Source: a virus. From it: a stretch of 64,000 nt of DNA. The position numbers and the translations under genes were made by a program. The stretch lies in the IMG/VR virus record IMGVR_UViG_3300037493_003260, positions 1 to 64,000 of that record; one strand, written 5' to 3'. The notes below the pieces were generated by a model. That model was not told the DNA's origin, did not search any database, and saw only the letters and a list, made by a program, of their open reading frames with translations. Positions 21,845-52,122 of the stretch are shown piece by piece; position 1 is the first letter of the stretch; each line of letters opens with the position of its first letter.

Positions 21845-21868
21845 GCATACCTCCCGAAGGTATTGTGA

Positions 21869-21900
21869 TGGAGCAGGAGAGTTTTAGCTCTCCTGCTCCA
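21869..21900. other. Perfect 13-bp stem-loop between collagen gene and glycosyltransferase
   Basis: TGGAGCAGGAGAG-6 nt-CTCTCCTGCTCCA; no U tract on the minus strand. Confidence 0.7.
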
Positions 21901-21917
21901 GTAAATCTTTTAGCTAC

Positions 21918-23033
<1,116 letters not shown>

Positions 23034-26552: not shown

Positions 26553-27443
26553 TTACAGTGCTTTACCGAATTTTGAGTCCATGCTCTTATTCAGAACATC
26601 TTCACGAACCTTCTCCTGCTCGGCAGTTAAAGGTTTGCCTGACTGCACCCACTTTAGCACTTCTGCTCGTTGATTCTGGAATTGGGAATCATCGTTGTCG
26701 GTACTGTCCGCATTCTTCTCGATTATGCGCTTTCTAGGCATCGGCTTTTTCAAAAGCTCTGTTACCGCGTCGAAACGTTTTCTCAACGTCTCCAATTCAT
26801 TCGTGACCTTTGTTAAGGATTCTTTTTCTTCCTTAGCATCAGCCAATTTCTTTGCTTCTAATTCAGCAAGTTCTCTTTTCTTCTTTTCTTCTTCTGTTTC
26901 AACGACTTCTTCTTTAGATTCAGCTGCTTCTTTAGCAGGTGTTTCAACAGCTTCCTCTTTTGGGTCTTCCTTCTTGGCCTCAATTGCAGCAGCCAATTCA
27001 GCAGGAATAGCCTTGACAACCTCGGTTGCTTCATGTGTCTTAGCCTCTGGCATCACTTCTGCAACAGCCTTTGGTGCTTCAGGAGCACTCGGAGCAACAG
27101 CAGCAGCCTCTACGGGATTACTTGTAGCAGGTAGCACTGTTCCTGTTGGTGCTTCAGGCTGAATGCTTCCAACGCTTACTACAGGAGATGCAACTACAGC
27201 AGATGCCTCAACAGCGGACGGCTTAACTTCTGGCGCATCAGTAATATTACCTGTTGCAGCCCCTGCCATGGCTTTTTCGGTAGAGCTTTCACCCAGCGCG
27301 GGTGTTGCACTTGCGTTCTCTGGAGTTGCTTTAGCCCCTGGAACAGGCCTATAAGCACCTTCAAAAGCTTTTTCAAGAGCTTCGACCTTCTTCACCAAAG
27401 TCTCGATTACTGCACTAAATTTAATCATATCTTCCGTCGTCAT
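26553..27443 (-). CDS. Nested in-frame scaffolding protein (296 aa)
   Basis: GAGGAGG SD upstream of internal ATG (MTTEDM); A/E/K/P-rich, coiled coil. Confidence 0.75.
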   Translation of the reverse strand: MTTEDMIKFSAVIETLVKKVEALEKAFEGAYRPVPGAKATPENASATPALGESSTEKAMAGAATGNITDAPEVKPSAVEASAVVASPVVSVGSIQPEAPTGTVLPATSNPVEAAAVAPSAPEAPKAVAEVMPEAKTHEATEVVKAIPAELAAAIEAKKEDPKEEAVETPAKEAAESKEEVVETEEEKKKRELAELEAKKLADAKEEKESLTKVTNELETLRKRFDAVTELLKKPMPRKRIIEKNADSTDNDDSQFQNQRAEVLKWVQSGKPLTAEQEKVREDVLNKSMDSKFGKAL

Positions 27444-28295
27444 TTCGTTTATTCCTCCTCGGTTTGAAACGTTATGAGTTTGATAAGCAGTGCCAAGTAT
27501 AGCTTGCGCCTTCTTGTGAACAGCCTCAACTTCATCTGGAGTTAAGTTATATTTCTCCATTATTGCCAGTGCCGTTACGGCATGGACCTTATCGGACATA
27601 GGAAGCAGACGCTCTTTGATAAGCATGTCGTCTTTCTTGTACTTGCGAATGACCCCATAGCTGGAGTCTGCAAGCTGGTCAAGTTCTTCCCTGTCCAAAA
27701 CTTTTCTGGTTAAAGAATCCACTTTATCACGGTGGCTATGAATCTCAGCCATTAGCGGGTCCTCAGCCTCTGTAATAACAAGCCTATTAGAGTCCTCGAC
27801 GATTGCCGTTTGAAACGGTACTCCGTCAATGGACTTAACCAACTCAAAAGAGCATCCAGCGTTTGCTGGATTGTCTACAAGGGACAACTCATTCAAGCGG
27901 TATTTTGTGATACGGGTAACAGTGCGAGAACCGCCTGTTGCCAAGTCCTTTACAATCTGGACATTCTTGTGAACAGTCTGCCCACCAATAGAAAATCCAG
28001 TCAGTGTTCCATCCTTGACTTTCTGCCAGGTGTCTTCTGCGCCCTTGGAAATGTAAGCTTCGACCCACATCTTTTTGCTGTCATCATCAGGAATAATTTC
28101 CACAGCTTTGCCAACGGCTTTGGGTTCATGCATCTCTCGGATGTTTTTGCCCCAATTGGAAAAAGCTTCCTTACTGCCAGCATAGTCAACTATCTCGCCC
28201 TGCTTGTCCACAGATTCCGTGGTCGCCCATCCCGCCACAGTGCGCTTTTCCTCGTTTATTTTTGAAATCGGACAGTACAAATTAAAATCATTCAT
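26553..28295 (-). CDS. Prohead maturation protease (S78/XkdF-like) fused to scaffold
   Basis: Start reset to MNDFNLY after AGGAGG; VDKQGEIV, IREMH, LTGFSIGG, ELSLVDNPAN. Confidence 0.9.
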   Translation of the reverse strand: MNDFNLYCPISKINEEKRTVAGWATTESVDKQGEIVDYAGSKEAFSNWGKNIREMHEPKAVGKAVEIIPDDDSKKMWVEAYISKGAEDTWQKVKDGTLTGFSIGGQTVHKNVQIVKDLATGGSRTVTRITKYRLNELSLVDNPANAGCSFELVKSIDGVPFQTAIVEDSNRLVITEAEDPLMAEIHSHRDKVDSLTRKVLDREELDQLADSSYGVIRKYKKDDMLIKERLLPMSDKVHAVTALAIMEKYNLTPDEVEAVHKKAQAILGTAYQTHNVSNRGGINEMTTEDMIKFSAVIETLVKKVEALEKAFEGAYRPVPGAKATPENASATPALGESSTEKAMAGAATGNITDAPEVKPSAVEASAVVASPVVSVGSIQPEAPTGTVLPATSNPVEAAAVAPSAPEAPKAVAEVMPEAKTHEATEVVKAIPAELAAAIEAKKEDPKEEAVETPAKEAAESKEEVVETEEEKKKRELAELEAKKLADAKEEKESLTKVTNELETLRKRFDAVTELLKKPMPRKRIIEKNADSTDNDDSQFQNQRAEVLKWVQSGKPLTAEQEKVREDVLNKSMDSKFGKAL

Positions 28296-28329
28296 GCTAA
28301 GTTTCCTCCTCGGAATCTTTGTTTTATTT

Positions 28330-28611
28330 TTATTTACATCTACTGCAAAGCCATTTGCCATTTTGGTAAGTGGCCTTTGAAACTTGTTGATTGCATTTGT
28401 TACAGATGAGTGCTTTTTTCTCACCGATACCTGAGAAACCTGTAAGCCTCTCACCGTTATTCTTCAAATTTTTAAAGGCGTTGAACTTACGAGAATCGTC
28501 AATTTTACAAGTAAACGCATCCCCGCTTTCGTGTTCAACAACAAATTCGTGAGAACCTGTTCGGGTCATGCTCTTGACTGTATGCCCGTCGTCTACTTTC
28601 TTTTTAGTCAT
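28330..28611 (-). CDS. Small zinc-finger protein
   Basis: CNKC..CSRC; GGAG SD. Confidence 0.7.
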   Translation of the reverse strand: MTKKKVDDGHTVKSMTRTGSHEFVVEHESGDAFTCKIDDSRKFNAFKNLKNNGERLTGFSGIGEKKALICNKCNQQVSKATYQNGKWLCSRCK

Positions 28612-30262: not shown

Positions 30263-31840
<1,578 letters not shown>

Positions 31841-31857: not shown

Positions 31858-32088
31858 TTAGTTTACAACTTTTATGGAGGCGGTACCGTCTCCATTATCC
31901 TCGGCTGCAAGGGGAAGGTAGCCTGTGATTTGGCCGCCAGCATCCACAATCGCAATCATCGGGACATAAGTGCTTTTCATATTCTCGTCATAGGGAATCG
32001 CAGGGACTGGCTGTTGCACAGCTGCCATCTGGACATCCTGAGGACGAGTTGTTAATCGTTGAAAAATTTTCTTTAAAAAAGTAAACAT
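31858..32088 (-). CDS. Small protein paralogous to N-terminus of 30263..31840
   Basis: [21 protein letters not shown] shared; start reset to MFTF after AAGGAG. Confidence 0.75.
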   Translation of the reverse strand: MFTFLKKIFQRLTTRPQDVQMAAVQQPVPAIPYDENMKSTYVPMIAIVDAGGQITGYLPLAAEDNGDGTASIKVVN

Positions 32089-32366
32089 TAAGACTCCTTT
32101 TTGTGCTGAGAAAGCCATCGTTTAAGACTAGCCCTTATTTTTAATTTTGTTTCCTTAGTTAATGTTGCACCACCTGGGACTGCTTCTAAAACTAGCATTT
32201 CTGGGTATAGCTGCTGCTTTCTTAAAAGCCTTACCCAACGATGTTTGTAAGTATCAGTTACAACAGTATGGCAATGGGCATAAAGTCTCTGTTCTAAATT
32301 GGCAGTCTGTCCAACGTATCGTACTTCTTTTGTAACTGGATGGCGTAACACATAAATATAAATCAT
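32088..32366 (-). pseudogene. Internally deleted GIY-YIG endonuclease
   Basis: IYVL..RYVGQT..R..H present; catalytic E and N region missing before a NUMOD3-like ETKLKI. Confidence 0.6.
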
Positions 32367-34210
32367 TACTTTTCTTTAGAAGACTCGTTATCAAAAAATC
32401 CGATACGGAGCGTGGCGTTAATTCCTTGTTTTTTCAAGGTATCAATAGTTTTGTCCAGCTGCTCGTATTGTTTTTTGGTTTTCTGTGACCGATTTACTTT
32501 TATGTTTAAATTACCTTCGTTTTGTTTTTGCTCATGGATAGTAGGCCGCCCTGCGTCGCCATTAACTTGTGGCTCAGGTTTCGGTCCAGGAGTATCACCT
32601 GGAATAGAGGCATCTTCCATGCCTGGTTCTGTGGGCATTCCTGGCATCGGAGGCATCCCTGGGGCAACGCCCATTCCAGGAATTGCTGCGGTCGGGTCAA
32701 TCTTTTGTTCGTCAAGTTTATCCAAGTCACTCACGGGCAGCATTCCGACGGCACCCTTAATAGTGTACTCGTCGCCGCCTTCAATTGGCTTGAGGCCGAG
32801 TTTCGTTCGACGTTCATTAATAGAAATCACGCCCGTATCAATGTCGATTTTGTCAATCTGGGCACCCTGGATATTTTCTTTTGCGTCTTCAGTGTTCCAG
32901 GCAAATTTTACGTCGGTAAACTTAAATTCAGTCTTTACAATCTCTTCGTTAAAATACGACTGTAGCAAATTTAGTAGATTATTAACCCCGCGTGCTTTTG
33001 AGAGTTCAACCTGGGATTCCAGATTGGCTTTTCCGAAATCTAGAGTAAACCCAATATCCTGTGGACAAAGCCCATAGCAAGCACATTTAACAGAGGTGGT
33101 CCACTTAAGGTATTCCATCATCTGCATGTCCTGATTTGTTTGGACTCGCATTGGAATAAACTGCATCTTGTCAGAGCCTGACGCAAACACAATCTTGTGT
33201 GCTCCGCCACGACCAAGGACTTCGTTCTCCCACATCTTTTGGAAGATAGCCCGTTGGTCTTCAGTAACACTCTCTCCCAGATTTAAAACGCCTGGGGGCA
33301 CATTGGAATGCTTAAAATATTCGATGTTGTATTCATCAGCGTACAGACTGGCCGTAATAATATAAGCTGCAACTTCAAGTGGACTAAGACCGTATCCTGT
33401 GTGCTGGGGATTCTGGGTAATATATAGAAGCTCGTCATTGGCGAACTCAGCTCTGAGAACACCTTTGTCTTCCCAGGCATAGGCTGCCTCTGGGGACGCA
33501 GGGGCGGTGCCATCTTCGTTTCGGTACAGTTTAACTTCTTGGCCAGGGACTGTGTAAAGCTCTGCAAGGTCTCCATGGTAATTATAGTTCTTTACCAAAG
33601 CCCCTGCATCAAAAATAAGGATGTCTTCCAATAGTAATTCAAGCAAAATCCTAAAGGAGGAGTCTGTGTCACTGGGATGCTCAAAGATATTCTTGACTTT
33701 GTATTTGTGTGACTCGGCAGTATCTCGCACTTTCCGAATCATAATTTTAAAAACCCAGCGAATGCGGTCACGTCTTTGGCTATCGTTGATACCTGTATCA
33801 TCCAAAATCACGTCTACCTTATGCTGAACTTCCTCTTTCAAATCCTTGCTTAGAATCTCGGATTCAAAATCAGGGGTATCAAATTCGTAGGGATTGATGT
33901 AGGCTAAAAGCAGATTTTCCCAACGGTCAAGTTCAGCCTCAACAGCGTCGGTATCGGGCACAATATCCCATGCCACGTTGCTGATGTAGCCTTTTAGAGT
34001 ACGCCGAATCGCCCAGGCAATTGGGTCAGTATTCGCCAGTCTCTTGAGGGTTTCACTATTCAAAACAAAAGTCTTCTGTTGTTTCTTGTTTAGAATAGTA
34101 TTGCTAAAAGCAAATAACCCTTTGCGAGGCATCGGGTTTTCACGCCCAGGGGCGGGCCTGAATGCTTTGTTTAAATTGTTTGTTAAACTTTTGAAGAAGT
34201 CGTTAGCCAT
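32366..34210 (-). CDS. Portal protein
   Basis: YGLSPLE, F..NVPPGVL, DMQMMEY, VISINERR..LGLKPIEGGD. Confidence 0.93.
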   Translation of the reverse strand: MANDFFKSLTNNLNKAFRPAPGRENPMPRKGLFAFSNTILNKKQQKTFVLNSETLKRLANTDPIAWAIRRTLKGYISNVAWDIVPDTDAVEAELDRWENLLLAYINPYEFDTPDFESEILSKDLKEEVQHKVDVILDDTGINDSQRRDRIRWVFKIMIRKVRDTAESHKYKVKNIFEHPSDTDSSFRILLELLLEDILIFDAGALVKNYNYHGDLAELYTVPGQEVKLYRNEDGTAPASPEAAYAWEDKGVLRAEFANDELLYITQNPQHTGYGLSPLEVAAYIITASLYADEYNIEYFKHSNVPPGVLNLGESVTEDQRAIFQKMWENEVLGRGGAHKIVFASGSDKMQFIPMRVQTNQDMQMMEYLKWTTSVKCACYGLCPQDIGFTLDFGKANLESQVELSKARGVNNLLNLLQSYFNEEIVKTEFKFTDVKFAWNTEDAKENIQGAQIDKIDIDTGVISINERRTKLGLKPIEGGDEYTIKGAVGMLPVSDLDKLDEQKIDPTAAIPGMGVAPGMPPMPGMPTEPGMEDASIPGDTPGPKPEPQVNGDAGRPTIHEQKQNEGNLNIKVNRSQKTKKQYEQLDKTIDTLKKQGINATLRIGFFDNESSKEK

Positions 34211-35487: not shown

Positions 35488-35823
35488 TTATCGTAAGTTA
35501 TTTAACGAATATTTGTTGGCCTCTAATACAGAAGCCCAATCACTAAATTTACATACTGAATGGTCAATAGCTAAATCAAATCGTGGTTTATTGCAAAGAA
35601 TGTTGTTATAAGGAATTTTATTTTTTTGAAGCCATACCTCTGTTGATGGGCCAAGACTTGCATCCCGACAGGTATAAATTAAGATGCGGTGTCCCAGGCT
35701 GGCCATTTTGTCTATGGCTTCCTTTGCGCCTGGAATTAGCGTGCAATATTCTACTTCTGAAAGAGCCATGTAATTTGGCAACGGCGTGCTAATTACGTTA
35801 TCGACTTCGATAGCGATAATCAT
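35488..35823 (-). CDS. HAD-fold phosphatase-like protein, degenerate active site
   Basis: IAIEVDNVI (E for first D), IYTCR, KP..DLAIDH. Confidence 0.7.
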   Translation of the reverse strand: MIIAIEVDNVISTPLPNYMALSEVEYCTLIPGAKEAIDKMASLGHRILIYTCRDASLGPSTEVWLQKNKIPYNNILCNKPRFDLAIDHSVCKFSDWASVLEANKYSLNNLR

Positions 35824-36170
35824 TTTTTGTTAATAGCTGTCCGTTTTACAAACGCCTTGAGCAGCCCTCTTTCGATGAGTTCGTCGTTGTAAGATGTGTC
35901 TTTTCCAGAAAGATAAAGGAACGCAAGATATGTTCCAGATTTCTCGGACTTTAAAGACTTGACGGTTACCTCTTTGTTAAGAAGTTTTTCGGTCAGTGTT
36001 TTCTTTATAAGCGTTGCCTTTTCAGGATTTTTATTTCCACGAAATTCCAAAAAGTCTATTCCTGCAAGCCGAAACTCTTGGTTTTTTAATACTCCGAAAC
36101 CCAGGTCAACAGTAAGGATAAGGCATTCCTCGCTGATAATTTCTGTTACAAGTGCCAGATATTTATGCAT
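35820..36170 (-). CDS. Staphylococcal nuclease (SNase)-like protein, degenerate
   Basis: VDLGFG..RLAGID..N.ELI..G retained; DGDT and DKYGR replaced by SEEC and EKSGT. Confidence 0.7.
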   Translation of the reverse strand: MHKYLALVTEIISEECLILTVDLGFGVLKNQEFRLAGIDFLEFRGNKNPEKATLIKKTLTEKLLNKEVTVKSLKSEKSGTYLAFLYLSGKDTSYNDELIERGLLKAFVKRTAINKK

Positions 36171-38631
36171 GTAAATCTTCCTTTATTGCATCTATTGCGG
36201 CTTTCGCATCAACCAATCCCACGCCGCATTCATCAGCGGTAAAGGCTAGCGGTTTTGCGGTTGTCTTAAGAAGGTGCTTCACTGCAGCACACCGTTCTTT
36301 ATAATCTTTGGTCCAACTTGGAGCCGCCTCAAGAATTAGTGCACAAATTCCTGCAACCACTGGGGTTGCCATAGAAGTTCCACTCATGCGTTGGTAGGGC
36401 ACAGCATCTGATTGAACAGAACAATTATTCATGGGGGTATCGGCACTTTTTACCGATGTAACCCCATTTTCGTAATAGCAACCACCATAAGAAGCTTTAG
36501 TGCCACCGCCTGGGGCTACAAGGTCAGGCTTGGTTAAATTCACACCGTTGAAAATCACAGGGCCACGGGAACTGTAGCGTGTAATCTTGTTGTCCCTGTC
36601 TACTGCACCGACAGTAATTACTTTTGCAGCACAACTAGGGGACCCAATTGTATTTGCTCCAGGGCCTTCATTTCCTGCGGCCACAACTACAACAATGCCT
36701 TCAGAAGCCAGTGCATCTGCTTCCCGTGAGATGGCATCATCAGGAGTTCCTTCGCCACCAAGACTCATGGAGATAATATCGGCTCCTTGGTCGGCAGCCC
36801 ACGACATTCCCTTAATCACGGTATCGTTTGACCCGTGCCCGCTGTCGTTTAAAACCCGTGCATCTATAAGAACAACTTTTGGGGCAACGCCACGATAAAG
36901 TTTTCCACCGCCAGCGATTACGCCAGCACAATGCGTGTTATGAGCAATAAAGCCATTTGCTGTATAGTTATGGTTTTTAGTGACTGTAAAATCATAGAGA
37001 GTGGTGTTCGTATCTTGTATTGAAATATTACAAATCTTGTCAGCAACTCGACGATGGCAGTTTGGATTCTTTAGCTTTTTAAAGTGTAAAAATTTGCCGA
37101 GTTCCGTGTTACAAGAGAGGCCTACAGCGTAGCACATATTTTTATTTCCGAAGGTACTCTTATTAGAGCTGTGTTTACAAATCCAAGAACGAATACCTAA
37201 GGCCTTAAGTAGGGAACAAAGTCCATCGGCAAATTGTTTGCTTCCAGTAATAATTCTAGCTTTGCTATTAATACAGCCATCTCCATCAATGGCCCCAGCC
37301 AAAAAAGAAAAAATAACACTTCGAGGAGACTTAGAAATAACGTAAGGTAACGTGACAGTTAGTGATTTGTTTCCAATAGGAATTCCAAGCTTATTAAATA
37401 AAAATACCAATTCTTTGTTATAGACGGAAACCCTATACGTATTGCGTTGCCTAAGGTCTTTCTTTACTTTCGGGGCATAATCAAATAACTCCTTAAAACC
37501 GTCGCAAAAATTTTGAACCAATTCAAGTGAATTACTAGTAAATTCGATTCTGGCGTTGCATCCAGCCTTCTCTTTTTTTAAATAGGACAAGTGACCGTCA
37601 GTTAATACTAGACCTACTAGGTACGCTAACTTTTCATTAACAGGCAAATTACTACCTCTAAATGGCACATAATGGTAATCATTTATATCTAACGAAGAAT
37701 CTGTAAGTTTGATGCACTCACCGACTTGGAGTTCATCAGCCCGTTTTTCTTTAATTGTCAATTCATGGCCCCTTGTTGAGGTAACCACAAAAACCTTGTG
37801 CCACGGCGTTAGGGCTAAACTACCACCTCTTGTGGTAATAGTGTACAACTTTCCAGTGTAAGGAATTTTATGTACAAATTCCATTTGGTCTGGCTCACAT
37901 ATTCCCTGAAGATTACAAGAAATGGTTTTAATGTTAAATCGTTTAATGTCTTTAACAGTAGAGCCATCCGTTAACTGGTAGGATTCTCCTGGAGATTTTT
38001 CGTATACAGTTTCGATTGTTTGCAATCCGCACAACGATGTGTACACTTTGGTATTGGCAGTTATACAGCCATGACCAACGCCATCCAGTTTTGCAATCTT
38101 GGGTGTTTTGGGGCGATTCCAAAACCATTTGCCAAAATAATCAGGCTGTGAAAAATCATACCGAGCAACTACTTTTCCTGCCAGGTCGGGGTGTCTGTCA
38201 TTGATTCCTGTATCGACGACAGCGACTTTAATTCCCTTTCCTTCGTACCCTGTTGTGGCTCTCAGTACAGAAACTTCTGTCTGAACTGCTGCCCTATCCA
38301 TATAAGCTCTGACTTGTTTCACAGGTTCAATGTCTACGTGGAGTTTCTCCTTGAGCCATTCCATTTGCTCAGAGGTTAACGCTGATTGAAATTCAACAAC
38401 CATGGCGTTAATACGCCGATGGAGTTGAATTAGTTTTCCGCCAAATTTTGCAATATCCTGAAGTTTTACGCCTGCCCGATTAAGAACTAGAAGAGCCGTA
38501 AGAAATGCGACTCCTGCAAGAAGGGGGTGCTTTGTAAAAACAGATTTAATGATTTTGCCAGCTTTAAGATATAAGAAATATCTCGGCAAAACATTTTCTT
38601 GACGTTGTAAATTTGTGATTTCTAAACTCAT
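36163..38631 (-). CDS. Subtilisin-like (S8) serine protease containing an intein
   Basis: VAVVDTGI, HG|TH, AAGN, SGTSMATP; N-terminal hydrophobic segment and propeptide. Confidence 0.93.
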   Translation of the reverse strand: MSLEITNLQRQENVLPRYFLYLKAGKIIKSVFTKHPLLAGVAFLTALLVLNRAGVKLQDIAKFGGKLIQLHRRINAMVVEFQSALTSEQMEWLKEKLHVDIEPVKQVRAYMDRAAVQTEVSVLRATTGYEGKGIKVAVVDTGINDRHPDLAGKVVARYDFSQPDYFGKWFWNRPKTPKIAKLDGVGHGCITANTKVYTSLCGLQTIETVYEKSPGESYQLTDGSTVKDIKRFNIKTISCNLQGICEPDQMEFVHKIPYTGKLYTITTRGGSLALTPWHKVFVVTSTRGHELTIKEKRADELQVGECIKLTDSSLDINDYHYVPFRGSNLPVNEKLAYLVGLVLTDGHLSYLKKEKAGCNARIEFTSNSLELVQNFCDGFKELFDYAPKVKKDLRQRNTYRVSVYNKELVFLFNKLGIPIGNKSLTVTLPYVISKSPRSVIFSFLAGAIDGDGCINSKARIITGSKQFADGLCSLLKALGIRSWICKHSSNKSTFGNKNMCYAVGLSCNTELGKFLHFKKLKNPNCHRRVADKICNISIQDTNTTLYDFTVTKNHNYTANGFIAHNTHCAGVIAGGGKLYRGVAPKVVLIDARVLNDSGHGSNDTVIKGMSWAADQGADIISMSLGGEGTPDDAISREADALASEGIVVVVAAGNEGPGANTIGSPSCAAKVITVGAVDRDNKITRYSSRGPVIFNGVNLTKPDLVAPGGGTKASYGGCYYENGVTSVKSADTPMNNCSVQSDAVPYQRMSGTSMATPVVAGICALILEAAPSWTKDYKERCAAVKHLLKTTAKPLAFTADECGVGLVDAKAAIDAIKEDLHA
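36937..38067 (-). mobile_element. Intein (377 aa) with LAGLIDADG endonuclease in the S8 protease
   Basis: HG|CITANT..LTPWH..LVGLVLTDG..FLAGAIDGDG..YDFTV..IAHN|TH. Confidence 0.93.
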
Positions 38632-38816
38632 ACTGTTTTGTCCTTATTGCCACGAACTGCGCCTTCGGCTGCACCACGAGCAATCGCCTCAGCTAGCAAA
38701 AGCAAAAATGCCCTTTTCTGTTCAGGGGTCATGTCTGCTAAGGCACTTCCTACCAGAGGAATAAGTCTAAGCAGAAAATTTTCAATTGTTTCTTGGACAT
38801 TCTTTGGGTCTGCCAT
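38628..38816 (-). CDS. Small hypothetical amphipathic protein
   Basis: Stop overlaps protease start (ATGA). Confidence 0.6.
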   Translation of the reverse strand: MADPKNVQETIENFLLRLIPLVGSALADMTPEQKRAFLLLLAEAIARGAAEGAVRGNKDKTV

Positions 38817-38889: not shown

Positions 38890-40119
38890 TTATTTCTTTT
38901 CTTCAGGTTCTTTTTTGATATCGTCTTTTGTTGCCTCACATTTATTAGCACCCTGCCTAGCAACGGCAGCTTGCCCAATCGGAGAAGCAACGGCTACGGC
39001 ATCGTCAAAAGCATCTTTCTTTACTGGTTCTTTTACAGAAAGTTCTTGCCATGCAGATTTTGCCATGGCGACAATTTCTTCTTCGCTCAAATCTGTAATT
39101 TCTTTGAGCGTGTCAACTACGCCACGTATAAATTCTTCAGGAGCTTCCGCAGGAAGCGGCTCACCAGCATGGGCTGCGCTCACTTCAGTGGCAGCTGCTT
39201 CAGGAGCCTTAACTTCTGCAGGAATAACAGGAGCGTCAGCGGATTTATTGGTTACAATATTACCAGCTTCCGCAGGTCCAGAACTAGGGACCTTGGGAAT
39301 TTTCGGTTTCTTTGGCTTGGGAAGCAGGTCCGATAGTTGCGTGCCAAGCATATTAGCAGCAACATCAGAAACAAACGCCCCGATACCTTTTTCCGTTTTC
39401 TCGTCTTTTTGAAAACTTTTTACAGCTTTCAAAAGTTCGACATTGGACTGGTTCACATGTTCAAATCTGCCGTCAGACCACTTAACCATCAAACCAACCT
39501 GGCCTGATTTCGTCTGATACACTTTGAGTACATGCCCAACAACTTTGCTGCCATTTGACAAAGTTTTTACAACGATGTCCTGGGTCTTGATGGAGTCATC
39601 GTAATTGGCGTGTTCGGTCATGCGACCCACGCGGTCCTCTTCGTAGTTCTCCTGCGTATGCTTTTTCTCGTCAGCGTCGGCCCATTCCTCTTTGGTTTTG
39701 TCACCGTAGGGCTTGCCTTCGGTCTTTTCTGAAGGAACGGCTTCTTCTTTTTTGTCCGTAATAGCAGCGTCCTTAACAGGAGGAACAACAGCAGCATTGT
39801 CTGTTGCACCTTCTTTGCGTTCAGAAACATCCGCTTTGGAATCATACCCGCCTTCTTTTCCACGATTCTGTGCAGGGACCCCCTCGGTTGCTTTGTCCGT
39901 TGACGGAGCTTTTGGAAGCTCTGGACTCGCAGCTGATTTTCGGATGGCATCACCTGTAGTACTTGTTACTGTTTTGCTAACACATTTTTTAGCATCTAAC
40001 AATTTGTTAAGCGATTCGTTAACTAACTTCTCTTCCTCGTTAGTTAAGGGAATGCAATTCCTGCGCTTTTCGATGATTGCTTCGAGGCTTTTGCTAGTTT
40101 CTGATTTTTCCATTGTCAC
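38890..40119 (-). CDS. Putative internal head protein, low complexity
   Basis: A/E/K/P-rich; N-terminus shares a 21-aa motif with the scaffold C-terminus. Confidence 0.7.
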   Translation of the reverse strand: MTMEKSETSKSLEAIIEKRRNCIPLTNEEEKLVNESLNKLLDAKKCVSKTVTSTTGDAIRKSAASPELPKAPSTDKATEGVPAQNRGKEGGYDSKADVSERKEGATDNAAVVPPVKDAAITDKKEEAVPSEKTEGKPYGDKTKEEWADADEKKHTQENYEEDRVGRMTEHANYDDSIKTQDIVVKTLSNGSKVVGHVLKVYQTKSGQVGLMVKWSDGRFEHVNQSNVELLKAVKSFQKDEKTEKGIGAFVSDVAANMLGTQLSDLLPKPKKPKIPKVPSSGPAEAGNIVTNKSADAPVIPAEVKAPEAAATEVSAAHAGEPLPAEAPEEFIRGVVDTLKEITDLSEEEIVAMAKSAWQELSVKEPVKKDAFDDAVAVASPIGQAAVARQGANKCEATKDDIKKEPEEKK

Positions 40120-43753: not shown

Positions 43754-44281
43754 CTATTGAAATTTATTGTATTTTTGATGATTTAAAATTGCAGGAATAA
43801 TTTGCAAATTCCATGGAACATGCAAACCGCAAACAAGGCTATTTTTAAGCGGGACGATATGGTCCACGTGATGCAAAATTCCTGTACTTTTAGTCATTTC
43901 TTTACAACGAAGGTAAACAGCTTTTAATTCGTCACTGTTAACCCAGAAAGGTTTGGCGTGCCGTTTGGCAGCTCGGCGACTTGCATGATGAGCATTCATA
44001 ATGCCCAAGTTAGCTTTTCGCCAAGCTTTATTATAGGCTAAAACTTTGCCTTTATTGGCCAAATAGTGCTTGTGCACTTTTGCACGACCTTGTTCTGGAT
44101 GTGTTTTAGAATAATGAGAAACAACTAACTTGTAATGCTCAGAATTTTTAGACTGCCAGGGTCGTACATATTTAGAACTGTGACAGCTTTTGCAATGCGA
44201 ATAAAGTCCGTCTTTTGCTCTACTGTCTTTATAAAAGTCGAGTTTGCTGAAGAAACTCTTGCAAGTTGCACACTGCTTCAT
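43754..44281 (-). CDS. Free-standing HNH endonuclease
   Basis: HVDHIVPL..VCGLHVPWNLQII...N..K.N. Confidence 0.9.
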   Translation of the reverse strand: MKQCATCKSFFSKLDFYKDSRAKDGLYSHCKSCHSSKYVRPWQSKNSEHYKLVVSHYSKTHPEQGRAKVHKHYLANKGKVLAYNKAWRKANLGIMNAHHASRRAAKRHAKPFWVNSDELKAVYLRCKEMTKSTGILHHVDHIVPLKNSLVCGLHVPWNLQIIPAILNHQKYNKFQ

Positions 44282-46965
44282 ACTTTTTTACCATAGAATG
44301 TTAAGTGGCTTTTTTCATCATCATCAGGCCTACGAAAGCCGTTGCTGTTTGCTAACCGTGTGGTTCCTGCAACCCCTGCGCTAAACTGTGCTTTGGCATT
44401 TTTGATGCACAAATTGACAACAGCGGCAACTGCATCTGCAAGGTCCTTGCTTCCTTCTTTGCGACCTTCTTCAAGTGACCTTCGATAAGACATCTCTGGA
44501 TGGTCCACTTTGCCGTTTGGTTTTCGGATGAGTTCTTCGCACTCGCGAATGAAAACTGGGTGGTGATAAATGTCAAGCAAACCTTTGTAGATTTGTTCTT
44601 TCAAGGTGTCGTAGGCTTCGGTACTTCTGTCAACTGATTGTACCTCGGCAGGGATACCTTGCTTAATTAAAAGCTGCACGCTGTCAACAGAGTTGTGAAC
44701 AAAGATACCAGCAGACAAAGCAAAATTATGTGTGGCTGGAACTTCGATGTCGTATACGTCTTCATACCCAGCAAACTCAACAGAGACAACTTTATGGTTG
44801 TTGGCACCGCACTTAGTTTTGCTAATTTTATCCTTGGTTTCTTGGCTTCGTTTTTTGCCCGTCCAATAACCAGGATTGCCCTTGTGAGCATCAGACATCT
44901 TCTTGGCATACACGGGGTCTTGCCAAAGTTTTTTAATGCTAGCACTAATCTTTTTTGCATTGGCAGCATCGGGCGGCTTTAACAGTGCTGGGAGATTAAA
45001 CTTTTTGTTTCTCTCAGCCATCAACTGTGCTTGCCGTTTGCGTTCACCAGGAATGGCCCAACGTTTTTCACTAAGGGCTTTGTGTAGTGCTACGTGTTTC
45101 TTTACGTGAATATAGACCAAGTTTTCTGGGCTATTGTTTAAAGGGTTAAAATCTTTATGATGAACAACAAAATCTTTTGGCTTAGGACCATAGCAGGTAG
45201 CAGCAACTACGTTATGCGTAAAATCCCAGGTTTTAGTCTCAGCATTATAAATCTGTTCATACTGTCGGACAGAGCCATCCTTACGCTTGTAAGGCTTCAC
45301 GTATTTTGTATACAAAGGCATTAAACTGTCACCAGGCTGTAAAAACTGCACCTGTCTGTAGGTGCCATCACGCATGAGTATCGGGTGGTCTGGAGTAAAT
45401 TCAACAGTCTCGCCGCTATCCAAAGTTACACGGTATACGGGAACTTTGGTACCAGTTTTTCTTACAGGCTTACAAAGTGCTGGAACAATGCATCCAGCCT
45501 TTAAATCGTAAGAATATATCCACGTTTCCTTGGTAAGTTCGTCTATTCGTAAGTCGTTACCATTCAACAACTTAACCTTGTTGCTTCCTAAAGTACATTG
45601 CCAGCCATCATACGTAACCATTTTAATATTAAAGCCACTTTTATAAAGACCTTGTATAAACTGACGAAATTCATCAAAAATAATCTCTTGTCCAGGACGT
45701 GCTCGGACCTGCATCATAAAATCAATGACTGCAGCAGGCTGCTTCTGTGTACTAATATTTGCAGTTGAAAGTCCCTCAGCTTTAGTCAATTCTTTTATGT
45801 AGTCGTCGCTGAGATTGATACTCTTATTACGAGTAAAGTGCCCCATGGCAATGCCCGAATAGTCACCAGATTCTTTGCCTTTGGCCAAGTCAATGTGTAT
45901 AAAATAAGGCTGATTCTTAATCGGTCTAAAGAAATCCTTGAATTTCAATTTTAAAATGTCGTTTGTCCAAATGGCATCTCCTTCAACAGGAGACACACGA
46001 TTGGGGTTTATGATGTCCTTGATGCGAGATTTGTATTTAAAATAGCCCTCAGCGGCTGTTGAACCCTCACACTCGTAGATACGCTTTGCGTCTTCAGGAC
46101 TCTTTAAATAGTCATCTGCGAAGTCAGCCTTGGTACGTTTAACATTCCAAACCCACGTTGGGGCTTTCACGCGAAAGGTCTTTGCTTCCTTCTCTGCCTG
46201 CTGATAACGAATCATCATAAAATCGTTGTCGTCACGTTTGTATGATATCAACATCGTTTTACGATTAGAACCAAAGCGCGTTTTTTGAGTGGAGACAAGG
46301 GCTGTGTAGAGCTTGTCGGCCTTGCCTGGGTCAAAACCCCCCACTTCGTCGAAGATGGCCAGAAGAATATTTAAGCCTTCGCCAGTGTACTCTTCGCTAT
46401 CCAGTGAATAAGCCGTGATAGCCTTCGGAAATTTGATTTCACGCGTTTGAATGTCTGCTTTAAGGTCAAGACCGTGTTCCTCAAACCAGTTCTTTTTGGT
46501 TTTTGGATTTCTGCAAACGCGAATCATAGCAATAAGATTTTTAAAGAACACGTCTTTGGCAAGTCGTGCGTTTAGAGAAACGTTAGCTAAGTCGATTGCG
46601 GACTCAGGGGCATCCTCGGAGTTGTTATTGATGCCTAGCATTTTCTGCGGATTTCTCATGCACAGCAATTTATACACACAGTAAAGAAAGACCTTACAAA
46701 TCGTTCGGTCCTTCCCACCCCCCTTGCCCACCAATGCAATACCCTCGTCATATGTGGCATCCCATATCAGTGGGTCAGTGCCAAGCATGGCCTCCACGAA
46801 TTTCTGCTGCTCTGGATAACAAGGCTCGTGCAAAAACTTTTCAAAGAAGACCGAAGGTGAAACTGGAATCTCTTCCCAAGTGTCATCAGTGCGGCGCAAT
46901 GATTTGCTAGCAGCTGACGCTGCATTTTTTACCAGTTCAAAATCACTATTGTCCTGGAGTGACAT
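44278..46965 (-). CDS. terL: Terminase large subunit containing an intein
   Basis: Walker A GKGGGKD, Walker B AIFDE, nuclease HIDLA..D..YDGWQ|S..KDLADAVA. Confidence 0.93.
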   Translation of the reverse strand: MSLQDNSDFELVKNAASAASKSLRRTDDTWEEIPVSPSVFFEKFLHEPCYPEQQKFVEAMLGTDPLIWDATYDEGIALVGKGGGKDRTICKVFLYCVYKLLCMRNPQKMLGINNNSEDAPESAIDLANVSLNARLAKDVFFKNLIAMIRVCRNPKTKKNWFEEHGLDLKADIQTREIKFPKAITAYSLDSEEYTGEGLNILLAIFDEVGGFDPGKADKLYTALVSTQKTRFGSNRKTMLISYKRDDNDFMMIRYQQAEKEAKTFRVKAPTWVWNVKRTKADFADDYLKSPEDAKRIYECEGSTAAEGYFKYKSRIKDIINPNRVSPVEGDAIWTNDILKLKFKDFFRPIKNQPYFIHIDLAKGKESGDYSGIAMGHFTRNKSINLSDDYIKELTKAEGLSTANISTQKQPAAVIDFMMQVRARPGQEIIFDEFRQFIQGLYKSGFNIKMVTYDGWQCTLGSNKVKLLNGNDLRIDELTKETWIYSYDLKAGCIVPALCKPVRKTGTKVPVYRVTLDSGETVEFTPDHPILMRDGTYRQVQFLQPGDSLMPLYTKYVKPYKRKDGSVRQYEQIYNAETKTWDFTHNVVAATCYGPKPKDFVVHHKDFNPLNNSPENLVYIHVKKHVALHKALSEKRWAIPGERKRQAQLMAERNKKFNLPALLKPPDAANAKKISASIKKLWQDPVYAKKMSDAHKGNPGYWTGKKRSQETKDKISKTKCGANNHKVVSVEFAGYEDVYDIEVPATHNFALSAGIFVHNSVDSVQLLIKQGIPAEVQSVDRSTEAYDTLKEQIYKGLLDIYHHPVFIRECEELIRKPNGKVDHPEMSYRRSLEEGRKEGSKDLADAVAAVVNLCIKNAKAQFSAGVAGTTRLANSNGFRRPDDDEKSHLTFYGKKV
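44692..45597 (-). mobile_element. Intein (302 aa) with HNH and NUMOD3-like domains in TerL
   Basis: WQ|CTLGS..TPDHP..VHHKDFNPLNN.PENL..GKKRSQETKDKIS..VYDIEV..FVHN|S. Confidence 0.93.
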
Positions 46966-47675: not shown

Positions 47676-48107
47676 TTAAAATAGTTTGTCTTTCCTGTAG
47701 GAAACGACTCGTTTACAGTGCTGTAAAAACTGTTCGGTAGTCAAACTAGCCTTTGCTATATTGCATGTACGGCAGCAAGACCTGCAGTTTTCTGGAGTGT
47801 ATCCTAGGGTGCTATCAATTCTATCTATGCCATAGTTGTCATTAGGAGTACCACAATAGCTGCAAGGTTGGCTTCCTATGGATATGAACTGTACTTTTGT
47901 GAGTAACCAGGTGAGCTTTCTACTGGTAGCCCCTGATTTCACACGACCGTAACGCTGGTTTTGCTGCGGGGTCAGGGGCATCGGAAGGCCTAGTAGCGCA
48001 TTGCGAACACAGTGTTTGCATGTTTTAGGATTGCTGTTCTGATACTGTTCCGAAATGGGGTAATATCCACTGCAAGTTTTACAGCGAAATCTAGCACTAT
48101 TGGGCAT
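47676..48107 (-). CDS. Free-standing HNH-like endonuclease
   Basis: CSYCG..GIDRIDS..GY..N..CC..CN. Confidence 0.85.
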   Translation of the reverse strand: MPNSARFRCKTCSGYYPISEQYQNSNPKTCKHCVRNALLGLPMPLTPQQNQRYGRVKSGATSRKLTWLLTKVQFISIGSQPCSYCGTPNDNYGIDRIDSTLGYTPENCRSCCRTCNIAKASLTTEQFLQHCKRVVSYRKDKLF

Positions 48108-48488: not shown

Positions 48489-49017
48489 TGCCCGTGTCTC
48501 CCTTTCTCCAGGTATCTGTCTTGTGCTCTTCCTGCTTGTCCCAGCCGTCCAATACCCAAAGGCTGGAGCAGAGCGAGCAAATTTCAAGAAAGCTTTCCTC
48601 TGCAATGTTGACTCTCAAATCCATCAGCAGTTCATATATTCGTGCCAGGTACCCCTCACGCTCACATCCCCGTACGGATTCCTCGTTGTACCTCCGCAGT
48701 TTTTCAACGAAGACTGGAAAAAACTCTGTCTTGGTTGCCACGGTTGTGCATTTCATTTCAGCGGTACCCCCTGGGCTAAGGTGATAGCCCCGCTTCAGCC
48801 AGTTGATGTACTGGTAGCAGCCAATTTTCAATAAGTCTTTTTCGAGGGTCATATTACGGTATCGCTTCACGTACTTTGCTTGTGTGCCAATCAGCCAATT
48901 CCAACCGAAGTCTTCCACCAGTTCGTCAGTGGCTTCCTTCCCTGCATTCGTGGAAGCATACTTCACGCCGCCGTACTCAAATTGATTTCTAAGTAAATCA
49001 ATAAACGTAACACTCAT
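48472..49017 (-). CDS. All-alpha protein resembling phage nucleotide-associated domains (DUF3310/DUF5664-like)
   Basis: YGGVKY..NWL.G..KY..RY..DLLK...Y pattern; weak. Confidence 0.4.
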   Translation of the reverse strand: MSVTFIDLLRNQFEYGGVKYASTNAGKEATDELVEDFGWNWLIGTQAKYVKRYRNMTLEKDLLKIGCYQYINWLKRGYHLSPGGTAEMKCTTVATKTEFFPVFVEKLRRYNEESVRGCEREGYLARIYELLMDLRVNIAEESFLEICSLCSSLWVLDGWDKQEEHKTDTWRKGDTGNGTKV

Positions 49018-49541
49018 TTTGGAACTCCTCTATGGTTTAATTTGTGCATTTTATCCTTTAATCGTAATTTAAATTTACCAAGCTGCTTGTGTTTAATAGA
49101 CTTCATTCCCCACAGTTTTCCTTGCAATAAGAGTTGTTCATAATCGAATAAAACAGCCACCTGAGCTTTTTTAATTACAAGATACGGATAAATAGCCTTA
49201 GCAAGGAACAGGGCCTGCTGGTATTGAATTTCCAAATGGTAAATTGTTTTTCTAAACTTGTAATTAAATCCAGGCCCTTCGTAGTATTTACGAACTGTGT
49301 TTTTTGATAAATTATGCTTATTAATGTATCCCCCGAATATCTTGTGCAAGAGTTTGATTATCTTTAGATTTGTATTCGTTACTACAATAAGAGGCACCAC
49401 AGCTACATGCCGTTTGCCAGAACTCCCTAAAGAACTCTTTTTTGTCAACGTGATGCATCCGTCACCATCAATAAAACCCGCAGTATATGCTAGAAAATTA
49501 TCGGAGACCCCATGCGTTCTATCAATAAAAGTTTTTGTCAT
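49014..49541 (-). CDS. Free-standing single-motif LAGLIDADG endonuclease
   Basis: AYTAGFIDGDGCI..NTN..FGG..PYL.IKK.Q. Confidence 0.88.
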   Translation of the reverse strand: MTKTFIDRTHGVSDNFLAYTAGFIDGDGCITLTKKSSLGSSGKRHVAVVPLIVVTNTNLKIIKLLHKIFGGYINKHNLSKNTVRKYYEGPGFNYKFRKTIYHLEIQYQQALFLAKAIYPYLVIKKAQVAVLFDYEQLLLQGKLWGMKSIKHKQLGKFKLRLKDKMHKLNHRGVPK

Positions 49542-51549: not shown

Positions 51550-52122
51550 TCATTTTGTTGCCTCAGTCTCTGGCTTCTTTGAAGCCTTCTCTACATCAAA
51601 CCCTGCCCCGAATTTCTGAATGTGCTCTTTGTATTCTTCGCTCAGAAAATCCGTCAACTGTTTGAAGTTGTGAAAGATTTTTCCGCCATTCTTAAAGTTA
51701 TCTCGTAGCAACGAAAGAATCCAGTCATTGAATTCTGTCACGGCTTGGTAACTCACAGTGTAGATGGGAATGCCCTTTTGCCATGCCTCCACAATTTCGT
51801 GAACAGTTCCGCCATACTTTTTCGCAGGGTCATACAAAAGAATCAGAAACTTTGATGTATTGACGCAAGTTAAATCCGAGCGACGAATATCTGCTAATAC
51901 CCTATCCCAGATTAGCCATTCTCCACCACGTTTCAGATTCTCCAGTTTCTTTTTTTGTTCTTCCATGGTTGTAGCCAAACTGTGGTTGCACTCTGACTTG
52001 CATGGGTCTAAAACAATGAACCCATCATCGGCCAAAGTTTTCGTGAGTTTTTCACGCCAACCGATGCCCCCATCAGCAGCATCCTGGATACTTCCAACTA
52101 AATATGTGCTGTATCTTAACAT
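51550..52122 (-). CDS. Nucleoside 2-deoxyribosyltransferase-like protein
   Basis: YLVGSI..WR..LDP..D...V..S..GT.HE...A...IP. Confidence 0.75.
   Translation of the reverse strand: MLRYSTYLVGSIQDAADGGIGWREKLTKTLADDGFIVLDPCKSECNHSLATTMEEQKKKLENLKRGGEWLIWDRVLADIRRSDLTCVNTSKFLILLYDPAKKYGGTVHEIVEAWQKGIPIYTVSYQAVTEFNDWILSLLRDNFKNGGKIFHNFKQLTDFLSEEYKEHIQKFGAGFDVEKASKKPETEATK

What the first reader, a model, noticed from the sequence alone, without database searches (positions are those of the whole stretch)
36163..38631. Phage-encoded subtilisin with an intein inserted in the catalytic HG|TH motif
Seen: complete D/H/N/S subtilase motifs, an N-terminal hydrophobic anchor and propeptide, and a 377-aa LAGLIDADG intein two residues after the catalytic His. 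Known: inteins favour conserved sites of essential proteins, mostly nucleic-acid enzymes, and S8 proteases are uncommon in phages. Inference: the protease is important and widespread in this lineage, and splicing gates its activity. A separate prohead protease exists, no endolysin is visible in the window, and a holin-like gene and a zincin lie downstream. It may therefore cut a protein envelope (S-layer) for lysis or mature virion fibres.
Basis: partly seen in the sequence, partly recalled or inferred. Interest (0 to 1): 0.75.

Follow-up and report, generated by a model that had tools for sequence, protein, structure and literature searches.

The report
Phage subtilisin gene split by intein
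An uncultured phage encodes a subtilisin-type protease whose active site is interrupted by a self-splicing, mobile protein insert (an intein), and the same insert turns out to be common in viral proteases of this type but apparently undescribed.

Summary
ORF 36163..38631 (-) encodes an 822-aa S8 subtilase precursor. A 377-aa LAGLIDADG intein (aa 189-565) sits between Gly188 and Thr566 of the catalytic HG|TH motif. A 91%-identical intein-free allele (P0265, 446 aa) reads straight through the site, which fixes both boundaries.

The protease is a conserved gene of one uncultured phage lineage. It always lies in the block between large terminase and portal. Only 2 of 23 alleles carry the intein, and those two are not sisters in the extein tree.

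The intein belongs to a large family. Of the 150 best library matches to the intein alone, 84 are followed directly by an S8 domain. Of these, 78 show the same HG|C...N|T junctions. Some viral S8 proteins carry a second intein at the catalytic serine. The nearest non-S8 relatives are mostly ribonucleotide reductase inteins. Six literature searches and one intein survey named no subtilase intein.

The "N-terminal anchor" is more likely the first helix of a subtilisin-type prodomain.

The protease's role is open. Gene position favours a head or internal-protein role. The lysis idea is neither supported nor refuted, because neither this contig nor a complete 104.8-kb relative shows a recognisable endolysin.

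The parts
36163..38631 (-). Whole precursor gene: 822-aa S8 subtilase with an inserted intein (stop codon at 36163..36165).
   Evidence: ORF list and translation. Pfam S8, Intein_splicing and LAGLIDADG_3. AlphaFold2 model with mean pLDDT 85.6.
38311..38631 (-). N-terminal region, aa 1-107. Probably an I9-type prodomain with no signal peptide. It contains the hydrophobic helix at aa 36-52.
   Evidence: Secondary-structure order in two models is E17-22, H36-52, E66-71, E76-80, H87-97, E99-103. Residue 1 of mature subtilisin aligns at model residue 108. Seven of 14 hits of a profile search, all not significant (E 0.36-1.2), are Tk-subtilisin propeptide chains. Pfam has no I9 hit.
38068..38310 (-). 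First part of the catalytic domain (aa 108-188) on the N-extein. It carries Asp140 (38212..38214) and His187 (38071..38073).
   Evidence: Motif positions. Both residues are invariant in 22 of 22 clade sequences.
36937..38067 (-). Intein, aa 189-565 (377 aa). Key residues are Cys189, block B T275-x-x-H278, His564-Asn565, and LAGLIDADG motifs at about aa 336-348 (Asp345) and 442-454 (Asp451).
   Evidence: Boundaries. Pfam. The fold matches homing-endonuclease inteins 7qsu (E 1.9e-27) and 1dq3. G+C is 37.0%, against 42.2% and 48.9% in the two exteins.
36166..36936 (-). C-extein, aa 566-822. It carries Thr566 (the +1 splice nucleophile), the oxyanion Asn654 (36670..36672) and the catalytic Ser753 (36373..36375).
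   Evidence: phrog_3677 'protease' at 2.7e-50. In the model the two exteins together align to subtilisin E residues 1-275 (1scj_A: Z 40.0, rmsd 1.7 A, 268 aligned).
38628..38816 (-). Conserved 62-aa ORF. Its stop codon overlaps the protease start codon (ATGA). Function unknown.
   Evidence: ORF list. It is 60-68% identical in five related contigs at the same position, and 31% in L106.
38890..40119 (-). 409-aa upstream neighbour. It is a candidate internal head protein whose N-terminus repeats the motif that ends the protease-scaffold ORF.
Evidence: Sequences read. A homologue precedes the S8 gene in 7 of 7 related contigs.
35820..36170 (-). 116-aa SNase-like nuclease ORF. It overlaps the protease stop codon by 8 nt.
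   Evidence: Pfam SNase at 6.2e-06 and phrog_452. It follows the S8 gene in 5 of 5 related contigs that extend downstream.

Best explanation
The gene encodes a pro-subtilisin (S8A-like, closest solved relative Tk-SP) that a selfish LAGLIDADG intein has invaded between Gly188 and Thr566 of the HGTH motif.

Shown:
- the exact in-frame insertion;
- intact splicing residues (Cys1, block B T-x-x-H, His-Asn at the end, Thr at +1);
- intact endonuclease motifs;
- an intact catalytic tetrad;
- a near-identical intein-free allele;
- patchy intein occupancy in a conserved host gene.

Inferred:
- The 822-aa precursor is inactive, because Asp and His lie on one extein and Asn and Ser on the other.
- It splices by the standard class-1 route: an N-S acyl shift at Cys189, transesterification to Thr566, Asn565 cyclisation, then an O-N shift.
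- The products are a 445-aa pro-protease and a free 377-aa homing endonuclease.
- The endonuclease cuts intein-free alleles during co-infection, and repair copies the intein in.
- The pro-protease then removes its roughly 107-residue prodomain, leaving a mature enzyme of about 338 aa.

Most likely role of the protease (about 35-40%, inferred from position only): a cytoplasmic late enzyme of the head module. It would process or accompany the capsid-internal proteins encoded beside it, namely the 933-aa ParB-like protein and the 409-aa protein that carries the scaffold-end motif.
For: Anatomy.

Exact boundaries: P0265 is 91% identical on both sides and contiguous at GHG|T.

Fold: the precursor model has mean pLDDT 85.6. 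Its intein matches 7qsu (E 1.9e-27, target TM 0.77) and 1dq3. Its exteins together cover subtilisin residues 1-275 (Z 40.0, rmsd 1.7 A). The model of P0265 matches 9ues_B at Z 46.0, rmsd 1.6 A, 289 aligned.

Selfish-element behaviour:
- Two of 23 clade alleles carry the intein.
- The two carriers were monophyletic in 0 of 200 bootstrap trees. P0002 groups with the intein-free P0004 and P0005 at 92/92.
- Intein G+C is 37%, against 42-49% in the exteins.
- The same genome also carries a terminase intein, at least one group I intron and many free-standing endonucleases.

Intein family: 84 of the 150 best matches to the intein alone are followed by an S8 domain, and 78 have both junctions.

Head-module position:
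- The order terminase ... ParB-like protein, 409-aa protein, small ORF, S8, SNase ... portal recurs in G001/L003 and L102-L106.
- An unrelated phage (L004) also places an S8+intein gene between terminase and portal.
- DdrB-like ParB proteins are described as head-packaged and encoded next to virion genes (PMC5512222, passages read).
Against: Splicing, endonuclease activity and protease activity are all untested.

The functional part rests on gene order alone.
- In four other viral contigs (L006-L009) the S8+intein gene has non-structural neighbours: sugar-nucleotide enzymes, prim-pol and a COOH-NH2 ligase.
- A dedicated prohead protease already exists.
- The N-terminal region of the protease shares no targeting motif with any other protein of the genome.
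- Subtilases are not among the four peptidase superfamilies reported in packaged polyvalent proteins. The word 'subtilisin' occurs 0 times in PMC5512222.

The prodomain assignment has no significant sequence support.
Confidence: 0.8

Rival explanations
1. Lysis or egress enzyme. The protease would be anchored in the membrane by its N-terminal hydrophobic helix. It would be exported and would degrade a protein layer of the envelope. Splicing and prodomain removal would act as delays.
For: - No endolysin, holin or spanin family was found by Pfam or PHROGs. This covers the 84-kb contig (97 ORFs; 37 plus 39 ORFs) and the ORFs specific to the complete relative G001 (55, 19).
- An Amidase_2 six-frame search of both genomes was negative.
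- The window protein's helix reaches Kyte-Doolittle 1.89.
- A conserved 108-aa ORF with a C-terminal hydrophobic helix lies three genes downstream.
Against: - The homologues' helices score 1.05-1.65, and the segment models as helix 1 of a prodomain-like unit.
- The gene lies among head genes, not at the end of a late operon.
- The host is probably a bacterium with peptidoglycan, given bacterial-type RecA, DnaB, DnaG and a sigma-70 region 4 protein, and peptide deformylase in G001. A subtilase is not known to cut peptidoglycan (recalled knowledge).
- Distant S8+intein proteins have only 42-60 residues before the Asp motif and no hydrophobic segment.
- Export of an intein-bearing precursor through Sec would be unusual (general knowledge).
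Confidence: 0.12
2. Packaged or early-acting effector. The protease would be loaded into the capsid with the ParB-like, SNase-like and 409-aa proteins. It would be injected to degrade host defence or other host proteins.
For: The block between terminase and portal holds several enzyme genes. These are a ParB-like nuclease, an SNase, a HAD-like phosphatase and an HExxH protein. This resembles the domain sets of head-packaged polyvalent proteins (PMC5512222, passages read). The upstream neighbour carries a copy of the scaffold-end motif.
Against: No capsid-targeting motif was detected on the protease. There is no proteomic evidence. S8 is not reported among polyvalent-protein peptidases.
Confidence: 0.2
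3. The intein has been co-opted as a conditional switch, for example one sensitive to redox state or temperature, that times protease activation. It would not be a purely selfish passenger.
For: The intein sits next to the catalytic His. The same site is occupied in at least 78 diverged viral S8 clusters, and some carry a second intein at the catalytic Ser. Intein and extein identities fall together (61/54, 43/37 ... 30/32%), which fits long co-residence.
Against: Twenty-one of 23 alleles in this clade lack the intein, including a 91%-identical one. The endonuclease motifs are intact, as expected for an element still in the homing cycle. No feature that suggests regulation was found.
Confidence: 0.1
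4. The gene is decaying. The intein no longer splices and the protease is dead.
For: None beyond the general fact that some inteins degenerate.
Against: The 822-codon frame is open. All splicing and catalytic residues are present. The fold models with high confidence.
Confidence: 0.03

Closest known systems
Homing-endonuclease inteins of archaeal V-ATPase A subunits and ribonucleotide reductase (TliVMA 7qsu/7qss, PhoVMA 7qst, PI-PfuI 1dq3, PI-PkoII 2cw7)
   Same: Same HINT splicing domain with an inserted two-motif LAGLIDADG endonuclease. Sequence E-values are 3.4e-12 to 1.9e-05. Foldseek E-values are 1.9e-27 to 3e-20. Seventeen of the 24 best non-S8 hosts of related inteins are ribonucleotide reductase large subunits.
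   Different: The host protein is a serine protease rather than a nucleotide-handling enzyme. The +1 residue is Thr. In the family the penultimate residue is mostly Ser (62 of 78), whereas in the window it is His.
Other proteases known to carry inteins: chloroplast ClpP of Chlamydomonas eugametos, and archaeal LonB
   Same: A protease gene interrupted by an intein. Both are named in PMC4760082 (passages and supplement file 2).
   Different: These belong to other protease families (S14 and S16). The LonB row is labelled P-loop in that survey. Neither host is viral. No subtilase is listed there.
Pro-subtilisins: Tk-SP of Thermococcus kodakarensis (3afg, 9ues), and subtilisin E, BPN' and Carlsberg
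   Same: Same catalytic fold and the same Asp-His-Asn-Ser residues. Matches are 9ues_B at Z 46.0 with 40% identity and 1scj_A at Z 40.0, and sequence E 3.1e-42 to 3afg. The N-terminal unit probably has the topology of an I9 propeptide.
   Different: There is no signal peptide. The prodomain helix is unusually hydrophobic. An intein is inserted. The gene is viral and lies in a head-gene block.
Phage terminase large-subunit inteins (for example in mycobacteriophages, PMC5050341)
   Same: A phage late gene invaded at a conserved motif. Occupancy is patchy among close relatives. This same genome has one (TerL aa 457-758), which the relative G001 lacks.
   Different: The terminase intein here carries an HNH endonuclease and the host protein is an ATPase-nuclease.
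Other phage S8 proteases (phrog_3677 'protease'; Bacillus phages SP-15 and Tsamsa-like; Moorella phage MTATph1)
   Same: Same family: the C-extein matches at 2.7e-50 and the L003 allele at 1.7e-72. tblastn identities are 30-36%.
   Different: None of the 104 matching records among 50,697 covers 80% of the query. Their roles are also unknown.

Membership tests
Subtilase, MEROPS S8 / Pfam PF00082 | Significant match to the family profile | tested here: met
   Pfam E 5e-57, 193.9 bits against a cut-off of 21.8. phrog_3677.
Subtilase, MEROPS S8 / Pfam PF00082 | Catalytic Asp, His and Ser in that order, plus the oxyanion Asn, each in its motif | tested here: met
   D140 (DTG), H187 (HG|TH), N654 (AAGNEG) and S753 (GTSMATP). 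All are invariant in 22 of 22 sequences.
Subtilase, MEROPS S8 / Pfam PF00082 | Subtilisin alpha/beta fold | tested here: met
   The model's exteins align to 1scj_A residues 1-275 at Z 40.0, rmsd 1.7 A. The P0265 model matches 9ues_B at Z 46.0.
Subtilase, MEROPS S8 / Pfam PF00082 | Proteolytic activity | not testable with these tools
   Needs an enzyme assay.
Class 1 intein with LAGLIDADG homing endonuclease | In-frame insertion that is absent from an otherwise collinear homologue | tested here: met
   P0265 is 91% identical and contiguous at GHG|TW. A further 20 intein-free alleles exist.
Class 1 intein with LAGLIDADG homing endonuclease | Splicing residues: Cys or Ser at position 1, block B T-x-x-H, C-terminal His-Asn, and Cys, Ser or Thr at +1 | tested here: met
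   C189, T275-P-W-H278, H564-N565 and T566. T275, H278, N565 and T566 are at least 90% conserved in 86 sequences.
Class 1 intein with LAGLIDADG homing endonuclease | HINT fold with an inserted endonuclease domain | tested here: met
   Pfam Intein_splicing at 4.9e-17, LAGLIDADG_3 at 2.6e-13 and Hom_end at 2e-05. Foldseek 7qsu at E 1.9e-27, target TM 0.77.
Class 1 intein with LAGLIDADG homing endonuclease | Two LAGLIDADG motifs, each with its acidic residue | tested here: met
   LVGLVLTDGH (D345) and LAGAIDGDG (D451), read.
Class 1 intein with LAGLIDADG homing endonuclease | Protein splicing, and cleavage of the empty site | not testable with these tools
   Needs expression and a cleavage assay.
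Subtilisin propeptide (MEROPS I9 / Pfam Inhibitor_I9) | Profile match and strand-helix-strand-strand-helix-strand fold ahead of the catalytic domain | tested here: inconclusive
   No Pfam hit at E 0.01 or better. The secondary-structure order fits in two models, with block-mean pLDDT of 50-86 over residues 11-100. Tk-subtilisin propeptide chains make up 7 of 14 hits, but at E 0.36-1.2.
Phage endolysin or signal-anchored (SAR-type) lysis enzyme | Cell-wall hydrolase domain, or a conserved N-terminal membrane helix | tested here: not met
   There is no cell-wall hydrolase domain. The helix is not conserved as a membrane helix: homologues score 1.05-1.65.
Prohead maturation protease (S78, S77, S80) | Match to those families | tested here: not met
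   The S8 gene has no such match. The S78-like protease is a different ORF, 26556..28454.

The most novel reading that the evidence does not exclude
This phage lineage has no conventional endolysin. The doubly locked subtilase, locked by both intein and prodomain, would be part of its egress machinery or another late host-killing step. Protein splicing would serve as a built-in delay, and the large viral S8-intein family would be a partly domesticated zymogen lock rather than a mere passenger.
Probability: 0.1. Interest if true: 0.8.

Novelty: new member of a known kind. Interest (0 to 1): 0.55.

Why it matters
Known inteins sit overwhelmingly in enzymes of DNA and nucleotide metabolism. A large family lodged at the catalytic His of viral subtilases, with a second site at the catalytic Ser, widens the list of intein hosts to a classic hydrolase.

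It also gives a clean natural pair for study. An intein-bearing allele and a 91%-identical intein-free allele allow direct work on homing and on Thr+1 splicing.

It offers a natural template for proteases that switch on only after splicing.

Separately, a conserved pro-subtilisin in the head-gene block of a phage lineage with no recognisable lysis genes is a concrete, testable lead. It bears on what phage subtilases do, which is still unknown.

Tried and rejected
Searches that gave nothing or could not run:
- A single-protein scan of viral contigs found nothing.
- The 19-sequence alignment was too diverse for pattern search (error). Smaller alignments were used instead.

Homing site at DNA level:
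- The window's flanks match six empty sites at only 46-64 of 90 nt, and 22-24 of the central 30. This is too diverged to define a recognition site or co-conversion tracts.

Public reads:
- One run holds the whole stretch. It may be the source and is labelled sediment metagenome.
- Three runs hold only short N-extein pieces.
- No contig joins across the intein.
- No RNA holder is listed.
- Nothing follows from this either way.

Other negative or uninformative results:
- The promoter and terminator scan found fewer promoter-like sites than shuffles.
- A shared capsid-targeting motif on the protease was not found.
- The resemblance of 'LTSEQMEWLKEKL' to the scaffold-end motif is better read as the second helix of the prodomain.
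- NCBIfam gave only sub-cut-off matches, with mycosin best.
- The context of the Methanofastidiosa virus S8 gene was uninformative.

Host hint:
- An aldehyde dehydrogenase carried by the relative G001 is 73% and 69% identical to two Bdellovibrionota genomes. It is 60% or less to the other 78 loci listed.
- This is one gene of a relative, so it is a weak lead only.

Structure searches:
- They say nothing about residues 1-107, because the catalytic domain fills the lists.

Literature:
- Six searches were made.
- The one apparent hit, the Salmacisia genome preprint, has its inteins in Prp8 and RPB2, not in subtilisins.
Full report
**What is there.** Window 36163..38631 on the minus strand is one open frame of 822 codons. 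Pfam finds the subtilase family at E 5e-57, an intein splicing domain at 4.9e-17, and LAGLIDADG endonuclease domains at 2.6e-13 and 2e-05. The subtilase match is in two pieces. Between them lies a 377-residue insert, aa 189-565, window 36937..38067. It begins with Cys, ends with His-Asn, and is followed by Thr. The junctions read GVGHG|CITANT and GFIAHN|THCAGV. Asp140 and His187 lie before the insert. The oxyanion Asn654 and Ser753 lie after it.

**Proof of the boundaries.** A search with the N-extein alone among shorter proteins returned 17 full-length subtilases of 437-451 aa, 48-93% identical to it. The closest, P0265 (446 aa), is 91% identical to the window protein on both sides. It runs straight through the site as KLDGVGHG-TWCAGAIAGG. 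The insert is therefore a precise in-frame addition to an otherwise collinear gene.

**Structure.** An AlphaFold2 model of the precursor, built on 86 aligned sequences, has mean pLDDT 85.6. Confidence is low only at the N-terminus, in two loops and at the two junctions.
- The insert matches solved homing-endonuclease inteins: 7qsu at E 1.9e-27 with target TM 0.77, then 7qss, 1dq3, 7qst and 2cw7.
- The two exteins together cover subtilisin E residues 1-275 at Z 40.0, rmsd 1.7 A, 268 aligned.
- A model of the intein-free P0265 has pLDDT 81.5. It matches Tk-SP (9ues_B) at Z 46.0, rmsd 1.6 A, 40% identity.

**The N-terminal region.** The hydrophobic stretch is real (Kyte-Doolittle 1.89 in the window). 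In six homologues it scores 1.02-1.65. In both models residues 17-103 form strand, helix, strand, strand, helix, strand. The hydrophobic stretch is the first helix of that unit, and mature subtilisin begins to align at residue 108. This is the topology of the subtilisin propeptide. Sequence support is weak: Pfam has no hit, and Tk-subtilisin propeptides fill 7 of 14 places in a profile search, but only at E 0.36-1.2. I read residues 1-107 as a prodomain without a signal peptide, at moderate confidence. I read the protein as cytoplasmic.

**The host gene in its lineage.** The genome is a single 84,088-bp contig with all genes on one strand. The collection rates it about 80% complete. It is a tailed phage:
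- portal (32366..34210);
- a protease-scaffold ORF (26553..28454);
- an SU10-type capsid protein;
- collagen-like fibres;
- a large terminase;
- bacterial-type RecA, DnaB, DnaG, DNA polymerase A and a sigma-70 region 4 protein.

Its relatives among isolated phages are remote, at 24-32% identity.

A relative, G001 (which holds L003), is complete. It is 104,771 bp with 127-bp terminal repeats, and 61 of its 151 ORFs are shared with this genome. In G001 and in six metagenome contigs (L100-L105) the subtilase gene lacks the intein (417-451 aa), and the gene order is the same.
- The 409-aa protein's homologue and a small ORF precede the subtilase in 7 of 7 contigs.
- The SNase-like ORF follows it in 5 of 5 contigs that extend downstream.
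- Terminase lies upstream and portal downstream wherever the contig reaches far enough.

The small upstream ORF, whose stop overlaps the protease start, is itself conserved. So the protease is a fixed gene of the block between terminase and portal.

**The intein as a mobile element.** Within this clade 2 of 23 alleles carry the intein: the window and P0002. In an extein-only tree P0002 groups with the intein-free P0004 and P0005 (support 92/92). The two carriers were never monophyletic in 200 bootstrap trees. So there was more than one gain or loss.
- The intein is poorer in G+C (37.0%) than the exteins (42.2% and 48.9%).
- Both LAGLIDADG motifs keep their acidic residue.
- The genome is rich in such elements. 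It has a second intein of the HNH type in the terminase (aa 457-758, absent from G001). A group I intron (Rfam, 65.9 bits) and a LAGLIDADG ORF break the capsid gene into three pieces. There are at least six phrog_1035 endonuclease ORFs, a further LAGLIDADG ORF and a GIY-YIG fragment.

**A large, apparently undescribed family.** The first protein search already showed 13 other proteins with both S8 and intein domains. All have the insert at the same HG|C...N|T(S)H position, although they are only 28-55% identical overall.

Searching the intein alone against one representative per 50%-identity cluster gave 1800 matches at E 0.001 or better, and 51 at 1e-30 or better. The 150 best include the window protein itself.
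- 84 are followed directly by an S8 C-extein.
- 78 show both junctions.
- Among those 78, the last two residues are Ser-Asn in 62 and His-Asn in 14.
- The +1 residue is Thr in 74.
- Intein length is 155-479 aa, with a median of about 403.

Five or six of the ten long S8 matches carry a second intein at SGT|C...HN|SMA. There the catalytic serine itself is the +1 residue.

Of the 24 best-scoring non-S8 hosts, 17 are ribonucleotide reductase large subunits. Two are MCM, one is a polymerase A and one is a TubZ-like protein. Three show no other domain.

Intein and extein identities to the window fall together (61/54, 43/37, down to 30/32%). This fits long residence in subtilases.

The viral contigs that hold these genes are diverse. 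One (L004) again has terminase, S8+intein, an endonuclease, then portal. Four others (L006-L009) have metabolic neighbours.

**What is in print.** Six full-text searches that combined intein terms with subtilisin, subtilase, peptidase S8, serine protease or subtilisin-like returned nothing on a natural subtilase intein. The Salmacisia preprint was read in passages. Its inteins are in Prp8 and RPB2. The 2016 survey PMC4760082 was read in passages and in supplement file 2 (file 1 was not searchable). It names ClpP and LonB as protease hosts and has no 'subtilisin' or COG1404 entry. PMC5050341 was read in passages and lists no protease host among mycobacteriophage inteins. The intein registry InBase could not be consulted. 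The library also omits most subscription journals. So 'undescribed' means not found in these searches.

**How it most likely works.** The shown and inferred steps are set out under Best explanation. In short, the precursor cannot be active. Standard class-1 splicing with Thr566 as acceptor would release a 445-aa pro-protease and a free endonuclease. The pro-protease would then shed its prodomain. The endonuclease would spread the intein to empty alleles in mixed infections. Since 21 of 23 alleles work without the intein, it is best read as a passenger that the enzyme tolerates, not as a needed regulator.

**What the protease does.** This remains open. ParB-like proteins next to virion genes are described as head-packaged (PMC5512222, passages read). 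The same paper does not list subtilases among their peptidases.

The lysis idea has nothing direct in its favour. Its proposed refutation also failed. Neither genome shows an endolysin, holin or spanin family by Pfam or PHROGs. Whatever lyses the host in this lineage is unrecognised.

**Verdict.** This is a real and cleanly delimited intein in a phage pro-subtilisin. It is a member of a sizeable intein family in viral S8 proteases that I could not find described. As a kind of thing it is a new member of a known kind.

Noticed in passing
window 44692..45597 (-), inside the terminase gene 44278..46965: The large terminase carries its own intein, aa 457-758 (302 aa), with HNH and NUMOD3 domains and junctions DGWQ|C...|SVDS. 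The relative's terminase (L003, 624 aa) is contiguous at that point.
   Followed up: partly
window 24331..26514 (-): The major capsid gene is in three pieces when compared with the 336-aa protein of G001: aa 1-38 at 26514..26401, aa 39-61 at 25445..25377, and aa 62-336 at 25167..24331. Rfam finds a group I intron at 25217..25418 (65.9 bits). A LAGLIDADG ORF (25564..26280) lies in the larger gap. The Rfam hit overlaps the middle piece, so the exact exon borders are unsettled.
   Followed up: partly
whole contig G000 and the complete relative G001 (L014-L019): No endolysin, holin or spanin family is detectable by Pfam or PHROGs in either genome. The lysis system of this lineage is unidentified.
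   Followed up: partly
L006:9914-13294 (same protein family as P0015), and P0121, P0134, P0163, P0164: Some viral S8 proteases carry a second intein at SGT|C...HN|SMA(T/C)P. There the catalytic serine is the +1 splice residue.
   Followed up: partly
window 14554..15114, 43754..44281, 47676..48107, 52116..52667, 61780..62268; L001:15665-16147: At least six paralogous free-standing endonuclease ORFs (phrog_1035, endonuclease VII/HNH type) are scattered through the genome. There are also a LAGLIDADG ORF (49014..49541) and a GIY-YIG fragment (32088..32366).
   Followed up: no
window 26553..28454 and 38890..40119 (-): The protease-scaffold ORF ends with ...PLTAEQEKVREDVLNKSMD. The 409-aa protein begins with ...PLTNEEEKLVNESLNKLLD.
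   Followed up: partly
window 63171..63758 (-): A 195-aa transglutaminase-like cysteine protease (Pfam DUF553 at 1.9e-10, Transglut_core at 6.1e-07). No homologue was found in G001 and its role is unknown.
   Followed up: no
L014:539-2029 (G001): The relative phage carries a full aldehyde dehydrogenase (Pfam 6.5e-184). It is 73% and 69% identical to two Bdellovibrionota genome entries and 60% or less to the others listed. G001 also carries a peptide deformylase and an M48 peptidase. This is a weak host hint.
   Followed up: partly
window 19021..23033 and 30263..31840 (-): Three collagen-repeat fibre proteins, with a group-1 glycosyltransferase (20717..21844) between two of them.
   Followed up: no
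window 1374..1522 (-): Adjacent tRNA-His (GTG) and tRNA-Met (CAT) genes.
   Followed up: no
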